Assembly (NCBI RefSeq): GCF_009914755.1
Contig: NC_060925.1
From: the human T2T-CHM13v2.0 reference genome, Homo sapiens
Direction: 5' to 3' (one strand)
Length of the DNA stretch: 64,000 nt
In this document: piece by piece, positions 33,773-44,206 of the stretch
Numbering within the stretch: position 1 is the first letter of the stretch
Layout of the letters: every line of letters starts with the position of its first letter
The notes under the pieces: model-generated
Told to the model about the DNA's origin: nothing
What the model saw: only the letters and a program-made list of their open reading frames with translations
The model's database searches: none
Made by a program: the position numbers and the translations under genes

Positions 33773-33871
33773 ATGGAGCAGTGGAGGAGGAGACTCCTTG
33801 CTGGGGACTCCTGCTGGAGCTCTGCGGCCCCTGCACCTTCAGTCCCAATGCAGACACTGGTGCCTTCAGAC
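33773..33871 (+). pseudogene. REN: REN-like exon 1 (signal peptide), frameshifted, donor site deleted
   Basis: MEQWRRR, then a +2 frameshift, then PCWGLLLELCGPCTFSPNADTGAFR, versus renin MDxWxRMPRWGLLLxLWGSCTFGLPxDT..F(K/R)R. No GT follows. Confidence 0.9.
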
Positions 33872-35991
33872 CAGCCAGAGATGGGGTGGCAGGGGTACAA
33901 GTGTTCCCACCTTCCTAACATCCCCAGTTTTTGGATATGTGATGTCATCCAATCCTCATGACCCAGACAAGGAGGATCCCATTCCAAAAGGTCAAGTGCC
34001 AAAGTCACACAGCAAATAGATCGGTGGCACATAGGTAGGCCTAATAGCTGTGTCTTTTGATTCCTGCCTGGAGGCCCTGCTAGGCACCCCTTGCTAGGCA
34101 TTGTGGGAAACTCAGAGATGTTTGAGACATGCCCCTTGCCCTCAAGGAGTTTGCAGCTTAGCTAGTAAAAAGGGCACGCTTAAGATGGTAGCATCCACTC
34201 CTGCCTGTGAGAGCCTCCAGCCTGCCAGCCTGCCCTATGGATTTTGGGTTTGTCAACACCCACATGTCACAAGCCAATTTCTTGAAACAAAAAAAAAAAA
34301 AAGAGAGAAGAAAGAAAGAAAAGGAGGTGGGGCATGGGCACAGTTAGCTCTACCAGAGAAACAGCACAATACAGTGGTTAAAAGTAAGGCTTGTAGAGTT
34401 CAATGTTCTTGGTTTAAACGTCATTCCACTAGCAGAACTAATGAGGCCTGGAACCATGGGTAAGTTCCTTAACTGCTCAAGTCTCAGTTCATTCATTTCC
34501 AAAACAGGGATATTGGCAGCACCTGCTCCATGGGTTGCTTTGAAGATGTAATGAGATAATGTATGTAAAGCTCTTAGCGTGCTGCAGCGAACATTGTAAG
34601 AACTCTGCTGTCATTAGTACTAAGGGCAGATTATCATAAATGTTAAGATGTAAAAGGCAGCAAAAAGGCAAAAGAAAGGATTAAGGCAGCCTAAAGGGAG
34701 AAGAAAAATTATCCGTTCTGTGCCAAGTCCTATGGGAACAAGCAATTCATTAAGGCTGGAGGAAGGAAGGAGGCAGGGTTGGAAGAAGATCTCAGAGAGA
34801 AAGAGGATTTCAGTTTGGGGAGTGCAAATGGGATCAGAAGACCTGAAGGTAAGTAAGCGGGAAGGTTTTTTAGTAGTCATGGTTGCTAAGCCTGTAAAAT
34901 GCTCCAGATTTCACGGGATCTTTTCTCATGTCTCATCTTCAATCACACTCCCAACAATCCAACATTCCCATTTTCCAATGAGGATATTGAGTCTCAGGGA
35001 AGTTGAGCGGCAAACCTTGGGTCATAAGTAAGAGTCTGAGCCTGAACACACACCTGACTTTTGTTTCCAAAGCCTCCTTTCCCTGCCCCAGGTCCCCAGG
35101 GAAAAATTGTTAGGCTGGGGGTAGGATGAGGGGGTGGGTGACCACAGGCCCAGGGCAGCCCCACCCACCTCCCTGTAAAGGTATAGGGAGGTGGAAAATG
35201 TCCTTCCTTGTTCTCTTCCAAAAGAAAAGATTCAGAAGAAAATTGGGCCAGGGGTGGAAGGGGAGTCAGGCTTTTGAAACACAGTTATAGAAATCTCTCA
35301 GCTGTTACGTGCAGAGCATCAGGCAGGGCGCTTCTTGAGATCTGCTTCCATGAACCCATTCTCAGGGTGCACTCATTGCCTTATGCACACTCAATTTACA
35401 TTGACTGAGCAGTGGGCAGCTCATTTAATCTGCACAGAGACCCTCTGAGGTAGGTGCAAATATTAAGCCCATTTTCATAGAGGTGCTTAGAAGAGGCCCA
35501 GACAGGTTAAGTTGGTCAGAATCCCACAGGTAGTAAGAGGAGGTACCTGGATTCACATGTGCCCCCTTGCCCACTACTATGCCCTCCACACCATATGGCA
35601 CCACCTCCACAAGCCTCAAGCTGTGCAGTGACAGCTGTGGGGCCCCAGGAAAAAACTGTGCAGGGGCAAAGGGAAAGGGGAGGCCAGTGTGGACGGGAAT
35701 CCTGGAAGTAAGCTTCCTAGATGAGGTACACATGCAGGGCTTTGAAGGGTTAAAGACCTGGGAGGAAAACAGGAATTGGAGAAGGAAGTGATTTTCTGAA
35801 AGGGGAATTGGCAAAAGTAAAGTTTCTGGGCAAAAGGCTGTTTGGAGTGAATAGTGGGGAATGCATCATCTTTGGGGTAAAGCCTTCTCTGACCTTCCAT
35901 CTCCCCATCCATAAGAGGAGAATAATGAAATTACCTGCGTCATGGGGAGGGTGAGAATCAAATAAGATCTTAATTGTGAAAATACTTTCTG

Positions 35992-36290
35992 TTTTTGTTT
36001 TTTTCTTCTGAGACAGGGCCTCGCTCTGGCACCCAGACTAGAGTGCAGTGGCACAATAATGGCTCACTACAGCCTTGATCTCCTGGGCTCAAGTGATCCT
36101 CCTGCCTCAGCCTCCCAAGAAGCTGGGACTATAAGCACATGCCACCTCGCCCAGCTAATTTTTTTATTTTTTGTAGAGATAGAGTCTCACTTTGTTGCCC
36201 AGGCTGGTCTAGAACTCCTGCCCTCAAGCAATCCTCCCACCTCAGACTCCCAAAATGCTGGGATTACAGGCATGAGCCACCACACTCGGC
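35992..36290 (-). mobile_element. AluJ in intron 1 of the renin pseudogene
   Basis: Reverse Alu with a perfect 15-bp TSD TGAAAATACTTTCTG. Confidence 0.92.
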
Positions 36291-37504
36291 TGAAAATACT
36301 TTCTGAATATTAAACTGCTGTATAATTATGACAAGTCATTTTGATTATAACCTTATGCTGACAGGCATGAAAGTTGTGTTCATGTTGTGGGGCACAATGG
36401 TGGGACAGTAAATAGAATGTGCAGGGTATGAAAAAGAAAAAGTAGTGGAACTGAAGGACGACCTGCAGCCGAGAAGTAAGGGAAAGTCCACATAGGCATG
36501 GGGAAAGGCTACTTTGCAAAGCTAAGTTTGCCTGGGACCCTGGGGCCTCTTGGACAACAGCTGAGGGCATCTTCCTCCAGGCTTGTTTAAACAATCTTCA
36601 TGTCGGTGAAGCCCAGGAGGTCTTTATGGAAATATGTCAGGCCCTTCATCAATTCTGAGCCACCTTCATTCCATTGAGCCTCATTTTCCACATCTATAAA
36701 ATGGGGATAACTCAGCTAGTTTGCGGAGTTGCTGTGGGCAGTGCACAGGGGGTGTGCAGTGTTTGACATGCACCGAGAACAGCTCAGTATGCTGGGAGTT
36801 TCCTAGGTCTCTTTTTAAACTCTGCTTCCCAAAGGTGAGAGGATGGTATCTGGACAAAAAGCTGAGGAACTGGGACTGGGCCTAACCTCATCTTTCTTAA
36901 GGACAAGGTGCACAGGTGCTCTGGCTATGCCGACTTCTCCTTGCCCAATCCAGTTTAATCTGACCACCTTACCCTCTATCCCCTGGCTGAGTACCTGCCC
37001 CCAGGTGTCCCAGAGCCCCAGCAGGCTGTGGTGGGCTTCTGCTGCCACCTATAGGCCCCATGTGGCACTGCCTCCCCCTGTCCAGCATTGAGGCCGGCAT
37101 TCCCAGCTTTCACCTCCTCAAAGGGGATGCCATTGCATGTTTCCTCATCTGTCTCCCTGCCTGCTAGAGTGCCTTAAAGGCAGTGATTATCTGCTTTACC
37201 TATATCTCCACTATCCGGCCCAGTGCAAGCGCAGAGTAGTTGTTCAACACGTGCAGAAGGAATGAATGAGAAAATGGCCTTGCAGTGATGGAGATCACAG
37301 AAAAAACAAGAGGAACTTAGTCGGGGGTTATTTAATGCCAGCACAGGTGACTCACGGAGGCTTGTAAATTTCCCTTCAGAGGCTTTAGGAAACAAAGTAA
37401 TTCTTAAGTGCCTGGGTTAAGGTTAGGGCAGTTGTGCTAGAAGCAGGGGGTGATTCAGGGAAAGTACGGGTCTCTTCTATTTTTGTTTCACTTCCCTGGG
37501 CCAG

Positions 37505-37633
37505 GACCTCCCCCTAAAAAATGTCCACAGTCCAGGAAAGCCTGAAGGAGGGAGTCATAAATGTGGCCTGGCTCAGTGCCAAGTGGAGACAGTTCAATGA
37601 GGCTCTCCTGTGGCCCTTACCAACGACCCGGAT
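37505..37633 (+). pseudogene. REN: REN-like exon 2 (prosegment)
   Basis: ccag|G ACC TCC CCC TAA AAA ATG...GAA AGC CTG AAG GAG...CTT ACC AAC GAC CCG GAT|gtgagt = TSP*KMSTVQESLKEGVINVAWLSAKWRQF...LTNDPD, versus [29 protein letters not shown]...LTNYMD. Stop at 37515-37517; ~20-nt deletion near the processing site. Confidence 0.92.
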
Positions 37634-37729
37634 GTGAGTGCCTGGCTCGGCCCCTCCTTCCTCCCTATCTCTTTTCTTTCTTGGACCCGAGGCTTTCTTT
37701 GCCTGCAAGGCCCACTCTTTCTCCATTGC

Positions 37730-43114: not shown

Positions 43115-43213
43115 TGTGTCATGGACTGGAAGCAGATGCCCACACTGCACAATGTCTCCCACCACCTCGAAGGCAGGGACTGCATGCTCACCAGTGCAGA
43201 TGACGTACAACAG
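43115..43213 (+). pseudogene. REN: REN-like exon 9
   Basis: Exactly 99 bp / 33 codons, open: CVMDWKQMPTLHNVSHHLEGRDCMLTSADDVQQ, versus [33 protein letters not shown]. Donor GT->GC. Confidence 0.93.
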
Positions 43214-43299
43214 GCAAGGCTCAAGTGCGTGATGGGGAGGAAGGCTGGGCAGGGCCCTCTAAGAGGTGTGAGTCATTATGCACAGGTTACATGTCAAGC

Positions 43300-43458
43300 T
43301 AGTGGTTCTCAAACCTGGCTGCATATTAGAGTCACCTGGGGAGCTTTTAAAATTCCCAATACCTAGGCCTCATCCCATGCCTATTAAAGCAGAGCCTCTG
43401 GACATGGCAGCTGGGCATGAGTGTTCCGTACAATTCCCCAGGTGATTCCAATGTGCAG
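43300..43458. mobile_element. MER5-type DNA transposon in the last renin intron
   Basis: AGTGGTTCTCAAACCTGGCTGCATATTAGAGTCACCTGGGGAGC...GGTGATTCCAATGTGCAGCCAGGCTTGCAAATCACTG. Confidence 0.8.
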
Positions 43459-43867
43459 CCAGGCTTGCAAATCACTGTGCTTGTCCATTTACCTCCATTT
43501 TCTCATCACATGCTCCCAAGAATCCTTTACTAGGGTTTTTCTTATCCTCTTGTTATACTCACTGTGCTTAGAGAAGTCCAGTAACTTGTCTGAGATCAGA
43601 AGCTATGCTAGACTATAAGCTCTCGAAGGCAGTGCTGTTGCTGATGCATTGTTTGTCTGGTTCTAGCACAGATCCTGCACCCTAGAGGAGAACCGTTCAG
43701 GACAGGCTTTAGGGTTGAAGTGGCAGGATGTGACAGAGGCCCAGTGCAGATGGAGGAATCGACAATAGGAAGAGGGATGCTGCTGAAGATGGCTGCGGGG
43801 GTCAAGCAAGGTGAATGGGGAATGTTTATGTGCTGGGCAGTAGGCAAACCCTCCTGCTTCCTGCTAG

Positions 43868-44206
43868 GACCTACAGTGATGACAACATGTGTATACTGGC
43901 CCTCTATGGCCTGCATGTGCCATGGCCCACTGGAGCCCTCTAGGGCCTGAGTGCTGGTTTTGTCCACAAGTTCTGCATGGAACTTGGTTACTGTACAATC
44001 AACCTGGCTTTGCCTTGGCCTGCTGAGGCCCTCTGCTGCCGGCGCAGGCCCTGCCCTCAGTCCTAGCCAATAGCTAGGGGGCACTCTCTGGGAGACCCAT
44101 TCTGCCTGTGCTTGTGCCCTCATGGGGACACTGGGCATGGAGCTCCACTGGACACTTGCCCTGTCCCCAACACCAGCTTTTCTCTGCATTGAGGACAAAG
44201 AATAAA
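43868..44206 (+). pseudogene. REN: REN-like exon 10, 3'UTR and poly(A) signal
   Basis: YSDDNMCILALYGLHVPWPTGAL*GLSAGFVHKFCMELGYC..NQPGFALAC* (TGA 44024-44026), versus ..[46 protein letters not shown]. 3'UTR GGCCCTCTGC...GCAGGCCCTGCC...GAGGACAAAGAATAAAGA matches the recalled REN 3'UTR. Confidence 0.94.

What the first reader, a model, noticed from the sequence alone, without database searches (positions are those of the whole stretch)
33773..44026. The pseudogene preserves ancestral, non-primate-type renin residues
Seen: [83 protein letters not shown]. As I recall them, these match carnivore/ruminant renins (DTGAFRR, YMENGT, GSGKVKG, QYYQGNF, CEEGC, GPTSSLRLLM, ELSxxE, LHGLDVP) rather than human REN (DTTTFKR, YKHNGT, STGTVSG, QHYEGNF, CEDGC, GSTSSIEKLM, KKRLFD, IHAMDIP). 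Inference: the copy split off before the substitutions that made primate renin distinct, so it is an in-genome outgroup for studying how primate renin and its angiotensinogen specificity evolved.
Basis: partly seen in the sequence, partly recalled or inferred. Interest (0 to 1): 0.8.

Follow-up and report, generated by a model that had tools for sequence, protein, structure and literature searches.

The report
Ancient dead copy of human renin
A decayed, unannotated duplicate of the human renin gene sits far from the working gene on chromosome 1; it was copied with the edges of its two neighbour genes long before monkeys and apes arose, and it still shows many renin residues that the working human gene has since replaced.

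Summary
In detail: 11 of 11 quoted peptide fragments are in + strand frames of window 33703-44026.

The locus is an unprocessed REN pseudogene. Nine of ten REN exons are present in order, and introns and flanks align to REN at chr1:203.4 Mb. It lies in a colinear duplicated block of at least 26 kb (window 24016-50077). The block also holds remnants of the KISS1 last exon and of ETNK2 exons 1-2.

The copy is dead:
- both catalytic DTG motifs are destroyed;
- a 355-bp LTR-like insert splits exon 3;
- exon 5 is deleted;
- there are four in-frame stops, many frameshifts and five lost splice sites.

The duplication is old. Noncoding K2P is 0.29-0.30, 0 of 12 Alus are shared, and the insert's own divergence is 0.148.

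The copy shares no human-specific residue where tested: 0 of 4 in exon 3, 0 of 8 in exon 4 and 0 of 8 readable in exon 10. It often agrees with rat, mouse and unnamed non-human renins instead.

Its position relative to non-primate lineages is unresolved. The kind is ordinary and the interest moderate.

The parts
24016..50077 (+). Colinear duplicated block, homologous to chr1:203455881-203411505 (minus strand). It spans the KISS1 3' part, REN and the ETNK2 5' part.
   Evidence: blastn chains and genome search. 15566 aligned pairs within 29002-50077 are 76.0% identical.
25235..25414 (+). Weak remnant of the 5' part of the KISS1 last exon. The kisspeptin-10 coding part has no alignable counterpart.
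   Evidence: 62% identity to the parent exon region. The parent ORF hits Pfam Kisspeptin at E 2.3e-35.
29685..30549 (+). Upstream stretch with lower divergence (K2P 0.15-0.23), homologous to about 9.6-10.4 kb upstream of the REN start codon. The parent is probably constrained there.
   Evidence: The link to the known distal renin enhancer is recalled, not tested.
31603..32154 (.). Younger interspersed repeat present only in the copy.
   Evidence: 39 genomic copies at 85-88% identity. It lies in a gap of the chain.
33773..33871 (+). Pseudo-exon 1. ATG kept, 2-nt insertion after 33789, donor GT lost.
   Evidence: 69 of 97 nt identical.
35983..36304 (.). Alu present only in the copy.
37505..37633 (+). 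Pseudo-exon 2. 22 nt deleted in three events, TAA at 37515.
38742..38772 (+). Pseudo-exon 3, first part. Acceptor AG changed to AA.
38773..39127 (+). 355-bp LTR-like insertion that splits exon 3. It is absent from REN.
   Evidence: 4672 candidate copies in the genome, 40 scored; own branch 0.148. The MLT1/MaLR name is recalled.
39128..39220 (+). Pseudo-exon 3, second part. First catalytic DTG reads AMG (39160-39168), 3-nt deletion, donor GT changed to CT.
39829..39948 (+). Pseudo-exon 4. Four small indels (net +1), TAG at 39843.
40188..40226 (+). Site of a deletion of about 1.3 kb that removed exon 5.
   Evidence: The REN exon 5 protein finds 12 places in the genome (14 candidates), none in the window.
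41655..41663 (+). Homologue of the 9-nt REN mini-exon 6, with AG and GT still flanking it.
   Evidence: 7 of 9 nt identical.
42194..42311 (+). Pseudo-exon 7. Two 1-nt deletions, TAG at 42296, donor GT changed to GC.
42684..42827 (+). Pseudo-exon 8. Second catalytic DTG destroyed (42738-42746), indels -1 and +3.
43115..43213 (+). Pseudo-exon 9. No indel, 65 of 99 nt identical, donor GT changed to GC.
43868..44026 (+). Pseudo-exon 10. Deletions of 2 and 1 nt, TAG at 43941, original TGA stop kept at 44024-44026.
46201..46800 (.). Decayed CpG-rich remnant of the ETNK2 promoter and exon 1 island (CpG o/e up to 0.59, against 0.91 in the parent).
46621..46687 (+). Remnant of the end of ETNK2 exon 1 and its donor region.
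   Evidence: 18 of 23 residues identical to the parent frame.
48513..48760 (+). Remnant of ETNK2 exon 2, with deletions and stops.
   Evidence: Parent exon hits Pfam Choline_kinase at 89 bits. 243 aligned nt are 80.7% identical.

Best explanation
Window 33773-44026 is a dead, unprocessed (DNA-duplicated) pseudogene of renin.

Shown:
- A genomic segment of at least 26 kb (as now preserved) was copied from the KISS1-REN-ETNK2 locus at 1q32 into the NGF-VANGL1 interval at 1p13.
- The segment carried the 3' part of KISS1, the KISS1-REN spacer, all of REN with its upstream region, and the ETNK2 promoter with exons 1-2.
- The copy cannot encode a protease.

Inferred:
- The copying took place roughly 70-100 million years ago, around the ordinal radiation of placental mammals. 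It certainly preceded the substitutions that mark human-type renin.
- The renin copy was probably disabled almost at once. An LTR insertion into exon 3 is about as old as the duplication itself.
- It has drifted neutrally since. Because it stopped tracking selection on REN, it keeps many ancestral residues that the human REN lineage later replaced, alongside many random changes of its own.
- It has no function today.
For: Homology and structure:
- Renin is the best PDB match for every frame that hits anything.
- Pfam Asp matches two exon frames.
- DNA homology to REN includes introns (72% over exon 3 plus intron). Colinear chains cover window 29002-50077 and 24016-28837.
- Nine of ten REN exons project onto the window in order.

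Neighbour gene remnants.

Lesions:
- Both DTG motifs are lost.
- There are 4 stops in the REN frame (window 37515, 39843, 42296, 43941).
- Frameshifting indels occur in exons 1, 2, 4, 7, 8 and 10.
- One acceptor and four donors are lost.
- Exon 5 is absent, and a 355-bp insert lies in exon 3.

Neutral drift: dN 0.351, dS 0.433, ratio 0.81 over 317 codons.

Age:
- Noncoding K2P is 0.29-0.30.
- Stretches where the parent is constrained give about 0.15 for the copy's own branch (K 0.153, 0.153 and 0.16).
- ETNK2 exon 2 differs at 19.3% of 243 nt.
- 0 of 12 Alus (11 in the REN block, 1 in the copy) lie at shared sites.
- The exon 3 insert has a star-tree branch of 0.148 among 30 copies whose branches range from 0.13 to 0.20.
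- If it is an MLT1-type LTR (recalled), passages of Zuo 2023 (PMC10735291) state that all primate-specific MaLRs are MST or THE1. They also state that MLT1 families are eutherian-wide, or Euarchontoglires-wide for MLT1A1.

Residues: and by eye.
Against: - No genome of another mammal could be searched, so the age rests on a molecular clock and on a recalled repeat name. It does not rest on presence or absence of the block in other species.
- The calibration of the human-lineage clock (about 0.05 substitutions per site back to the simian ancestor, 0.12 to the primate ancestor, 0.14-0.19 to the deeper placental nodes) is recalled, not computed here.
- The tree of exon 10 plus intron 9 read-through groups the copy with P0008 and the human-type rows (91/94). 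This would fit a duplication on the primate stem. That grouping is biased, because the copy was projected onto the REN reading frame.
- The exon-10-only tree resolves nothing, and AU tests reject none of three placements (p 0.096, 0.229, 0.352).
- In intron 3 the human REN copy shows about three times more lineage-specific changes than the pseudogene. A simple equal-rate model does not predict this.
- Absence of function is inferred. Transcription and chromatin state were not examined.
Confidence: 0.85

Rival explanations
1. The duplication occurred on the primate stem, after the split from rodents and other orders but before the human-type renin substitutions. The copy would then be an outgroup to crown primate or simian REN only, not to placental REN as a whole.
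For: - The copy's own branch (0.11-0.18 by several estimates) overlaps the recalled depth of the primate and Euarchontoglires ancestors.
- The tree with intron 9 read-through joins the copy to P0008 and human-type rows at 91/94.
- One intron 9 codon just before the acceptor is P in human, P0008 and the copy, but L, F, S or R in most other rows (alignment).
Against: - That tree is biased by projecting the copy onto the REN frame.
- The exon-only tree is unresolved.
- The exon 3 insert looks like an MLT1-type LTR (recalled). Most MLT1 families are older than primates.
- At the DVP/DIP site of exon 10 the copy keeps V, as do the outgroup rows, while human-type rows, P0008, P0009, P0010 and P0021 have I.
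Confidence: 0.3
2. The copy was a working second renin gene for a long time, and may still be intact in some mammals, before dying on the human line.
For: - The block carried the REN upstream region as well as all exons, so the new copy could have been expressed.
- ATG, stop codon and 6 of 8 acceptors are still in place.
- Unnamed intact renin fragments P0001 and P0002 are closer to the copy than to human REN in intron 3.
Against: - Pairwise dN/dS is 0.81.
- The exon 3 insertion is as old as the duplication on the same clock (0.148 against K/2 of about 0.15).
- P0001 and P0002 lack that insertion.
- Re-estimated branch lengths for the copy in intron 3 (about 0.06-0.135) fit plain neutral drift. 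The excess lies on the REN side.
Confidence: 0.08
3. It is a recent, within-simian duplicate of REN that decayed unusually fast.
For: None found.
Against: - K2P is 0.30 in 14577 aligned noncoding pairs.
- 0 of 12 Alus are shared.
- 0 human-specific residues are shared in exons 3, 4 and 10.
- Human, P0006 and P0007 form a clade without it (98/93).
Confidence: 0.02
4. It is a relic of a different, older aspartic protease paralogue (pepsinogen, chymosin or cathepsin-like, or a whole-genome-duplication twin of renin), not a copy of REN itself.
For: Other aspartic protease relics lie on 1p13. The REN exon 5 search hits chr1:110.50 Mb (with a TAG) and chr1:111.40 Mb.
Against: - Introns, the upstream spacer and fragments of KISS1 and ETNK2 align to the REN locus.
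- Renin outranks cathepsin D and pepsin in the PDB search.
Confidence: 0.01

Closest known systems
Human REN (renin) gene at 1q32.1, chr1:203.42-203.43 Mb in this assembly
   Same: Same exon order and intron positions. Introns, the upstream region and both neighbours' edges are alignable.
   Different: 76% nucleotide identity in aligned pairs and 47.5% residue identity (153 of 322 codons). Both active sites are lost, exon 5 is missing, exon 3 is interrupted, and there are stops and frameshifts. It lies 88 Mb away on the other arm.
Mouse Ren2, the strain-specific tandem duplicate of Ren1 (recalled; a mouse submaxillary renin chain, 1smr, was seen)
   Same: A DNA-level duplication of a whole renin gene with flanks.
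   Different: Ren2 is recent, tandem and functional. This copy is ancient, dispersed and dead.
Other human aspartic protease pseudogenes, such as the chymosin pseudogene CYMP on 1p13 and NAPSB (names recalled)
   Same: Unprocessed, decayed members of peptidase family A1 in the human genome. Candidate places were seen at chr1:110.50 Mb, chr1:111.40 Mb and chr19:53.42 Mb.
   Different: Those are annotated relics of genes that are functional in other mammals at the same locus. This one is a duplicate of a gene that still works elsewhere in the same genome, and RefSeq lists no gene in the window (hub note).
Segmental duplications as catalogued for the human genome (at least 1 kb at 90% identity or more; definition recalled)
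   Same: A multi-kilobase DNA-mediated copy that includes parts of three genes.
   Different: At 76% identity it is far below the catalogue threshold, so standard segmental duplication tracks would not list it.

Membership tests
Unprocessed (duplicated) pseudogene of REN | Homology to the parent extends through introns and flanking DNA | tested here: met
   Colinear chain over window 24016-50077; introns have K2P 0.23-0.36.
Unprocessed (duplicated) pseudogene of REN | Exon-intron structure of the parent is retained (not a retrocopy) | tested here: met
   9 of 10 exons are in order and separated by homologous introns.
Unprocessed (duplicated) pseudogene of REN | Disabling lesions exclude a full-length product | tested here: met
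   4 stops, frameshifts in 6 exons, exon 5 missing, LTR-like insert in exon 3, 5 splice sites lost.
Unprocessed (duplicated) pseudogene of REN | No transcription or translation of a functional product | not testable with these tools
   No expression data were available.
Peptidase A1 (pepsin-like aspartic protease), renin branch | Profile match to the Asp domain | tested here: met
   PF00026 hits on frames 39124-39384 (27.4 bits) and 42194-42298 (19.9 bits, at the cut-off). 2 of 24 frames submitted hit.
Peptidase A1 (pepsin-like aspartic protease), renin branch | Two catalytic Asp-Thr/Ser-Gly motifs | tested here: not met
   The first reads Ala-Met-Gly (39160-39168). The second is destroyed by a deletion and substitutions (42738-42746).
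Peptidase A1 (pepsin-like aspartic protease), renin branch | Closest relatives are renins rather than cathepsin D/E or pepsins | tested here: met
   renin chains at E 6e-8 to 6e-6, cathepsin D at 1.4e-4 or weaker, pepsin at 4.6e-4 or weaker. In some searches only renins matched; renins led and the four other rows were weak matches (E about 0.004) to an unrelated protein.
Human-type (simian) REN lineage | Shares residues that are specific to human-type renin | tested here: not met
   0 of 4 in exon 3 and 0 of 8 in exon 4. 0 of 8 readable columns in exon 10.
Human-type (simian) REN lineage | Shares primate-specific repeats (Alu) at the same sites as REN | tested here: not met
   0 of 12 Alus are shared.
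Catalogued segmental duplication | At least 90% identity over at least 1 kb (definition recalled) | tested here: not met
   76.0% identity in 15566 aligned pairs.
MaLR LTR (MLT1-type), for the insert 38773-39127 | Match to a curated repeat consensus | not testable with these tools
   No repeat library was available. The name rests on recalled likeness of the ends and 3' part. It is a dispersed family of about 355-370 bp with at least 4672 candidate copies.

The most novel reading that the evidence does not exclude
The pseudogene acts as a frozen reference that exposes a localised burst of change in the working human REN gene.

Judged against five unnamed non-human renin fragments, the human REN line carries far more lineage-specific changes than the neutrally drifting copy from the end of intron 2 through exon 4:
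- Intron 3: 15 REN-only against 4 copy-only (P0001) and 15 against 6 (P0003), on nearly separate halves of the intron. P0002 gives 17 against 5 on the first part.
- Exon 4: 8 of 24 codons changed on the human line, none on the non-human lines.

Intron 4 is balanced. If real, part of what made primate renin distinct was a regional mutational or conversion-like episode that hit introns and exons alike, not only adaptive co-evolution with angiotensinogen.
Probability: 0.2. Interest if true: 0.6.

Novelty: new member of a known kind. Interest (0 to 1): 0.38.

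Why it matters
- It adds an unlisted relic to the short catalogue of human aspartic protease genes and pseudogenes. It also shows that the renin locus was once duplicated together with pieces of KISS1 and ETNK2.
- It gives an internal, neutrally evolving witness of what renin looked like before the human-type changes in exons 3, 4, 7 and 10. Those changes bear on the known species specificity of primate renin.
- The practical gain is modest. Living non-primate renins already serve as outgroups, and half of the relic's codons carry changes of its own.
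- Its real use is for dating, for polarising intron changes in REN, and for keeping the relic from confusing read mapping or variant calls at REN.
- Five literature searches found no description of it. Subscription journals and pseudogene catalogues such as GENCODE could not be checked, so it may already be listed there.

Tried and rejected
**Searches that gave nothing**
The three frames were then read with X at every stop.
- PDB searches with the exon 1 frame and the second half of exon 8 alone gave only chance hits, to FabI and glucose-6-phosphate isomerase at E 0.6-0.8.
- A scan of prokaryote genome contigs for contaminating mammalian renin found 108 pattern matches. None was confirmed.

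**Ideas considered and dropped**
- The first idea, that the locus is a pepsinogen or chymosin-type relic as elsewhere on 1p13, was dropped.
- A processed pseudogene is excluded by the introns.
- I considered that P0002, and perhaps P0001, are orthologues of the pseudogene copy rather than of REN, because they are closer to it in intron 3. I rejected this for two reasons. Both lack the exon 3 insertion, which is as old as the duplication. A codon-wise estimate also puts the copy's branch at 0.06-0.135, which is ordinary drift, with the excess on the REN side.
- A GC-biased conversion signature was sought for that excess. REN is only slightly richer in G+C: 1633 weak-to-strong against 1380 strong-to-weak differences overall, and 45 against 34 near exon 3. 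This is not decisive.
- Misalignment as the cause was checked with a second aligner and rejected.
- Exons being more diverged than introns (K2P 0.373 against 0.291) first looked like selection on REN. Decay of former CpG-rich codons in the dead copy explains much of it. Examples are Arg codons read as His, Cys or Gln in exon 10. With CpG sites removed the gap shrinks to 0.329 against 0.275.

**Trees**
- Trees of exon 10 could not place the copy.

Full report
**1. Observation**

- Two frames match the Pfam aspartyl protease profile: 39124-39384 at E 2.9e-6 and 42194-42298 at E 5.4e-4. That is 2 of 24 frames submitted.
- The exon 3 frame finds renin chains first in the Protein Data Bank: rat 5mlg at 6.1e-8, mouse 1smr and 5mkt at about 1e-6, human at about 5e-6. 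Cathepsin D and pepsins follow at 1e-4 or weaker.
- The catalytic Asp-Thr-Gly of that exon reads Ala-Met-Gly.

**2. What it is**

The window's own assembly could be searched. It places the window at chr1:115,444,001-115,508,000. A 301-nt exon-plus-intron probe finds one other place, chr1:203,425,278-203,425,535 on the minus strand, at 72% identity. That place is REN.

I fetched 80 kb there. I derived the ten REN coding exons from open frames, GT-AG borders and the requirement of a 406-codon product.

blastn gives one colinear chain from window 29002 to 50077. Three further colinear pieces run from 24016 to 28837. Together they match chr1:203,455,881 down to 203,411,505. Nothing beyond these limits aligns apart from dispersed repeats.

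Within 29002-50077, 15566 aligned pairs are 76.0% identical.

The parent interval holds three genes:
- The last exon of KISS1. Its frame hits Pfam Kisspeptin at E 2.3e-35.
- All of REN.
- The first two exons of a choline/ethanolamine kinase gene. It has a Pfam Choline_kinase exon at 203,413,850-203,414,110 (89 bits), and I take it to be ETNK2 from the recalled gene map.

The window keeps remnants of each neighbour:
- A weak remnant of the KISS1 exon at 25235-25414.
- The end of ETNK2 exon 1 at 46621-46687.
- ETNK2 exon 2 at 48513-48760, 80.7% identical over 243 nt, with deletions and stops.

The former ETNK2 CpG island has partly decayed. CpG observed/expected reaches at most 0.59, against 0.91 in the parent.

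So this is a DNA-level copy of a multi-gene segment, not a retrocopy and not an old paralogue.

**3. State of the renin copy**

| Exon | Window | State |
|---|---|---|
| 1 | 33773-33871 | ATG kept; 2-nt insertion; donor lost |
| 2 | 37505-37633 | 22 nt lost in three deletions; TAA at 37515 |
| 3 | 38742-38772 and 39128-39220 | Split by a 355-bp insertion; acceptor and donor lost; first DTG lost |
| 4 | 39829-39948 | Four small indels; TAG at 39843 |
| 5 | absent | About 1.3 kb of REN corresponds to 38 bp at 40188-40226 |
| 6 | 41655-41663 | 9-nt mini-exon homologue; AG and GT still flank it |
| 7 | 42194-42311 | Two 1-nt deletions; TAG at 42296; donor GC |
| 8 | 42684-42827 | Second DTG lost |
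| 9 | 43115-43213 | No indel; donor GC |
| 10 | 43868-44026 | Two deletions; TAG at 43941; original TGA stop kept |

The REN exon 5 protein finds 12 places in the genome (14 candidates): REN, other family members and two relics on 1p13. None is in the window.

Projected on the REN frame, 153 of 322 comparable codons give the same residue. dN is 0.351 and dS is 0.433, a ratio of 0.81 over 317 codons. This is what a copy that drifted from the start would give.

**4. Age**

- **Noncoding divergence.** K2P is 0.291 in introns (6969 pairs), 0.313 upstream and 0.270 downstream. It ranges from 0.23 to 0.36 by intron. Half of it, about 0.15, is the expected depth of the duplication.
- **The copy's own branch.** Short stretches where the parent is evidently constrained give a direct reading: K 0.153, 0.153 and 0.16. 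ETNK2 exon 2 differs at 19.3% of sites.
- **Alus.** None of the 12 Alus in the two blocks lies at a shared site. Eleven are in the REN block and one is in the copy.
- **The exon 3 insert.** It belongs to a dispersed family of about 355-370 bp with at least 4672 candidate copies, of which 40 were scored. Against 29 fetched copies its K2P has a median of 0.283. In a star-tree least-squares fit over 30 copies its own branch is 0.148, within a family range of 0.13-0.20. The insertion is absent from REN, so it followed the duplication, and by this clock it followed closely.
- **Repeat family.** From memory, the ends and 3' part of the insert look like an MLT1-type MaLR LTR. Passages of Zuo 2023 (PMC10735291) state three things. 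All MST and THE1 families are primate-only. MLT1A1 is confined to Euarchontoglires. The other MLT1 families, except MLT1C2, are widespread in eutherians and absent from opossum.
- **Calibration.** Recalled branch lengths for the human lineage are about 0.05 to the simian ancestor, 0.12 to the primate ancestor and 0.14-0.19 to deeper placental nodes. A depth of about 0.15 then means roughly 70-100 million years. That is certainly before simians, probably before crown primates, and near the placental ordinal radiation.

**5. Residues**

Reading the three frames through with X at stops, rodent renins outscore human renin in most exons.

By eye on those printed alignments, the copy agrees with both rat and mouse against human at about 25 positions. 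The counts by exon are 3 in exon 3, 8 in exon 4, 8 in exon 7, and 2 each in exons 8, 9 and 10. It agrees with only one rodent at 6-8 further positions. It agrees with human against both rodents at about 5-7, of which 3 are in exon 9.

Searches of large protein sets gave 23 unnamed fragments of mammalian or other vertebrate renin genes, many reading on into introns: P0001-P0023.

Scripted three-way counts:

| Region | Reference | Codons | REN-only | Copy-only | Copy = human against reference |
|---|---|---|---|---|---|
| Exon 3 | P0001 | 39 | 4 | 9 | 0 |
| Exon 4 | P0004 | 24 | 8 | 3 | 0 |
| Exon 4 | P0005 | 24 | 8 | 4 | 0 |

In exon 10, human differs from at least 8 of 11 non-primate-type rows in 10 columns. 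The copy has the majority residue in 4, the human residue in 0, another residue in 4, and is unreadable in 2. Its best identity is to P0011 (27 of 49 readable columns). Identity to human is 21 of 49.

**6. Placement**

A tree of exon 10 plus intron 9 read-through joins the copy to P0008 and the human-type rows (91/94). There the copy had been projected onto the REN frame, while other rows lose frame in the intron, so the grouping is biased.

With exon 10 alone the only supported groups are human+P0006+P0007 (98/93) and the two most distant rows. The copy sits on a branch of length 2.0. AU tests reject none of three placements:
- the copy outside all placental-type rows (p 0.096);
- the copy with the human-type rows (p 0.229);
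- the copy with those rows plus P0008 (p 0.352).

This is not seen. Whether the copy predates the primate-rodent split stays open.

**7. An unexplained asymmetry**

Against the non-human fragments, human REN carries more private changes than the copy in intron 3:
- 15 against 4 (P0001, window 39223-39493, sign test p 0.019);
- 17 against 5 (P0002, overlapping the first);
- 15 against 6 (P0003, window 39472-39828).

The end of intron 2 gives 8 against 3. Intron 4 is balanced (5 against 8, 3 against 5, 7 against 3).

A second aligner confirms the alignment. There is no strong GC-biased signature. Intron 3 has K 0.361±0.03, at the upper end of the introns. I leave this as a lead.

**8. Known or new**

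RefSeq lists no gene in the window (hub note). Five full-text searches found nothing on a human renin pseudogene or on a KISS1-REN-ETNK2 duplication. I saw the abstract, outline and keyword passages of a 2026 survey of vertebrate aspartic proteases (PMC13389413). It treats renin as one clade, and the passages I saw mention no renin pseudogene. Its supplements were not read. Pseudogene catalogues could not be consulted.

**9. Verdict**

The kind, an unprocessed pseudogene in an old dispersed duplication, is ordinary. This member appears unlisted and is well preserved enough to be useful.

Noticed in passing
window 39221-39828 (intron 3) and 38634-38741 (end of intron 2), against REN: Relative to unnamed non-human renin fragments, human REN has about three times more private changes than the pseudogene in intron 3 (15 v 4, 17 v 5, 15 v 6). 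Exon 4 shows 8 of 24 codons changed on the human line, with none on the non-human lines. Intron 4 is balanced. This suggests a local excess of substitutions in the working human gene.
   Followed up: partly
window 46201-46800: The copy of the ETNK2 promoter CpG island is only partly decayed (G+C 0.64-0.69, CpG observed/expected 0.45-0.59) after a very long time. It might still be kept unmethylated or used as a promoter.
   Followed up: no
window 49727-50005: A 280-bp piece matches the parent block in inverted orientation at 78% identity, above the block average. It lies inside the colinear range, so it is either a small inversion in one copy or a shared repeat.
   Followed up: no
window 41655-41663: The 9-nt REN mini-exon has a homologue in the copy with AG and GTAAGG still flanking it. 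Rat and mouse renins are three residues shorter at this point. The sequence and its splice signals therefore predate the duplication, whatever their use then.
   Followed up: partly
window 29685-30549: This upstream stretch is clearly less diverged from the REN locus (K2P 0.15-0.23) than its surroundings. It corresponds to about 9.6-10.4 kb upstream of the REN start and probably marks a constrained regulatory element of REN.
   Followed up: no
G000 chr1:110,502,015-110,502,185 and chr1:111,402,941-111,403,114: The REN exon 5 protein also hits two weak aspartic protease exon relics elsewhere on 1p13, one of them with a TAG. They are presumably chymosin-type or pepsinogen-type pseudogenes.
   Followed up: no
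window 31603-32154 and 37926-38215: Two copies of one interspersed repeat family lie in opposite orientation. The first is young (85-88% to 39 genomic copies) and the second much older (about 69%). Both are absent from the REN block.
   Followed up: no
REN locus, chr1:203,430,973-203,436,715 (between the upstream homology and exon 1): The REN locus has 5.7 kb, including four Alus, where the copy has only 110 bp (window 33157-33267). Most of the size difference between the two blocks (44 kb against 26 kb) comes from later insertions on the REN side.
   Followed up: partly
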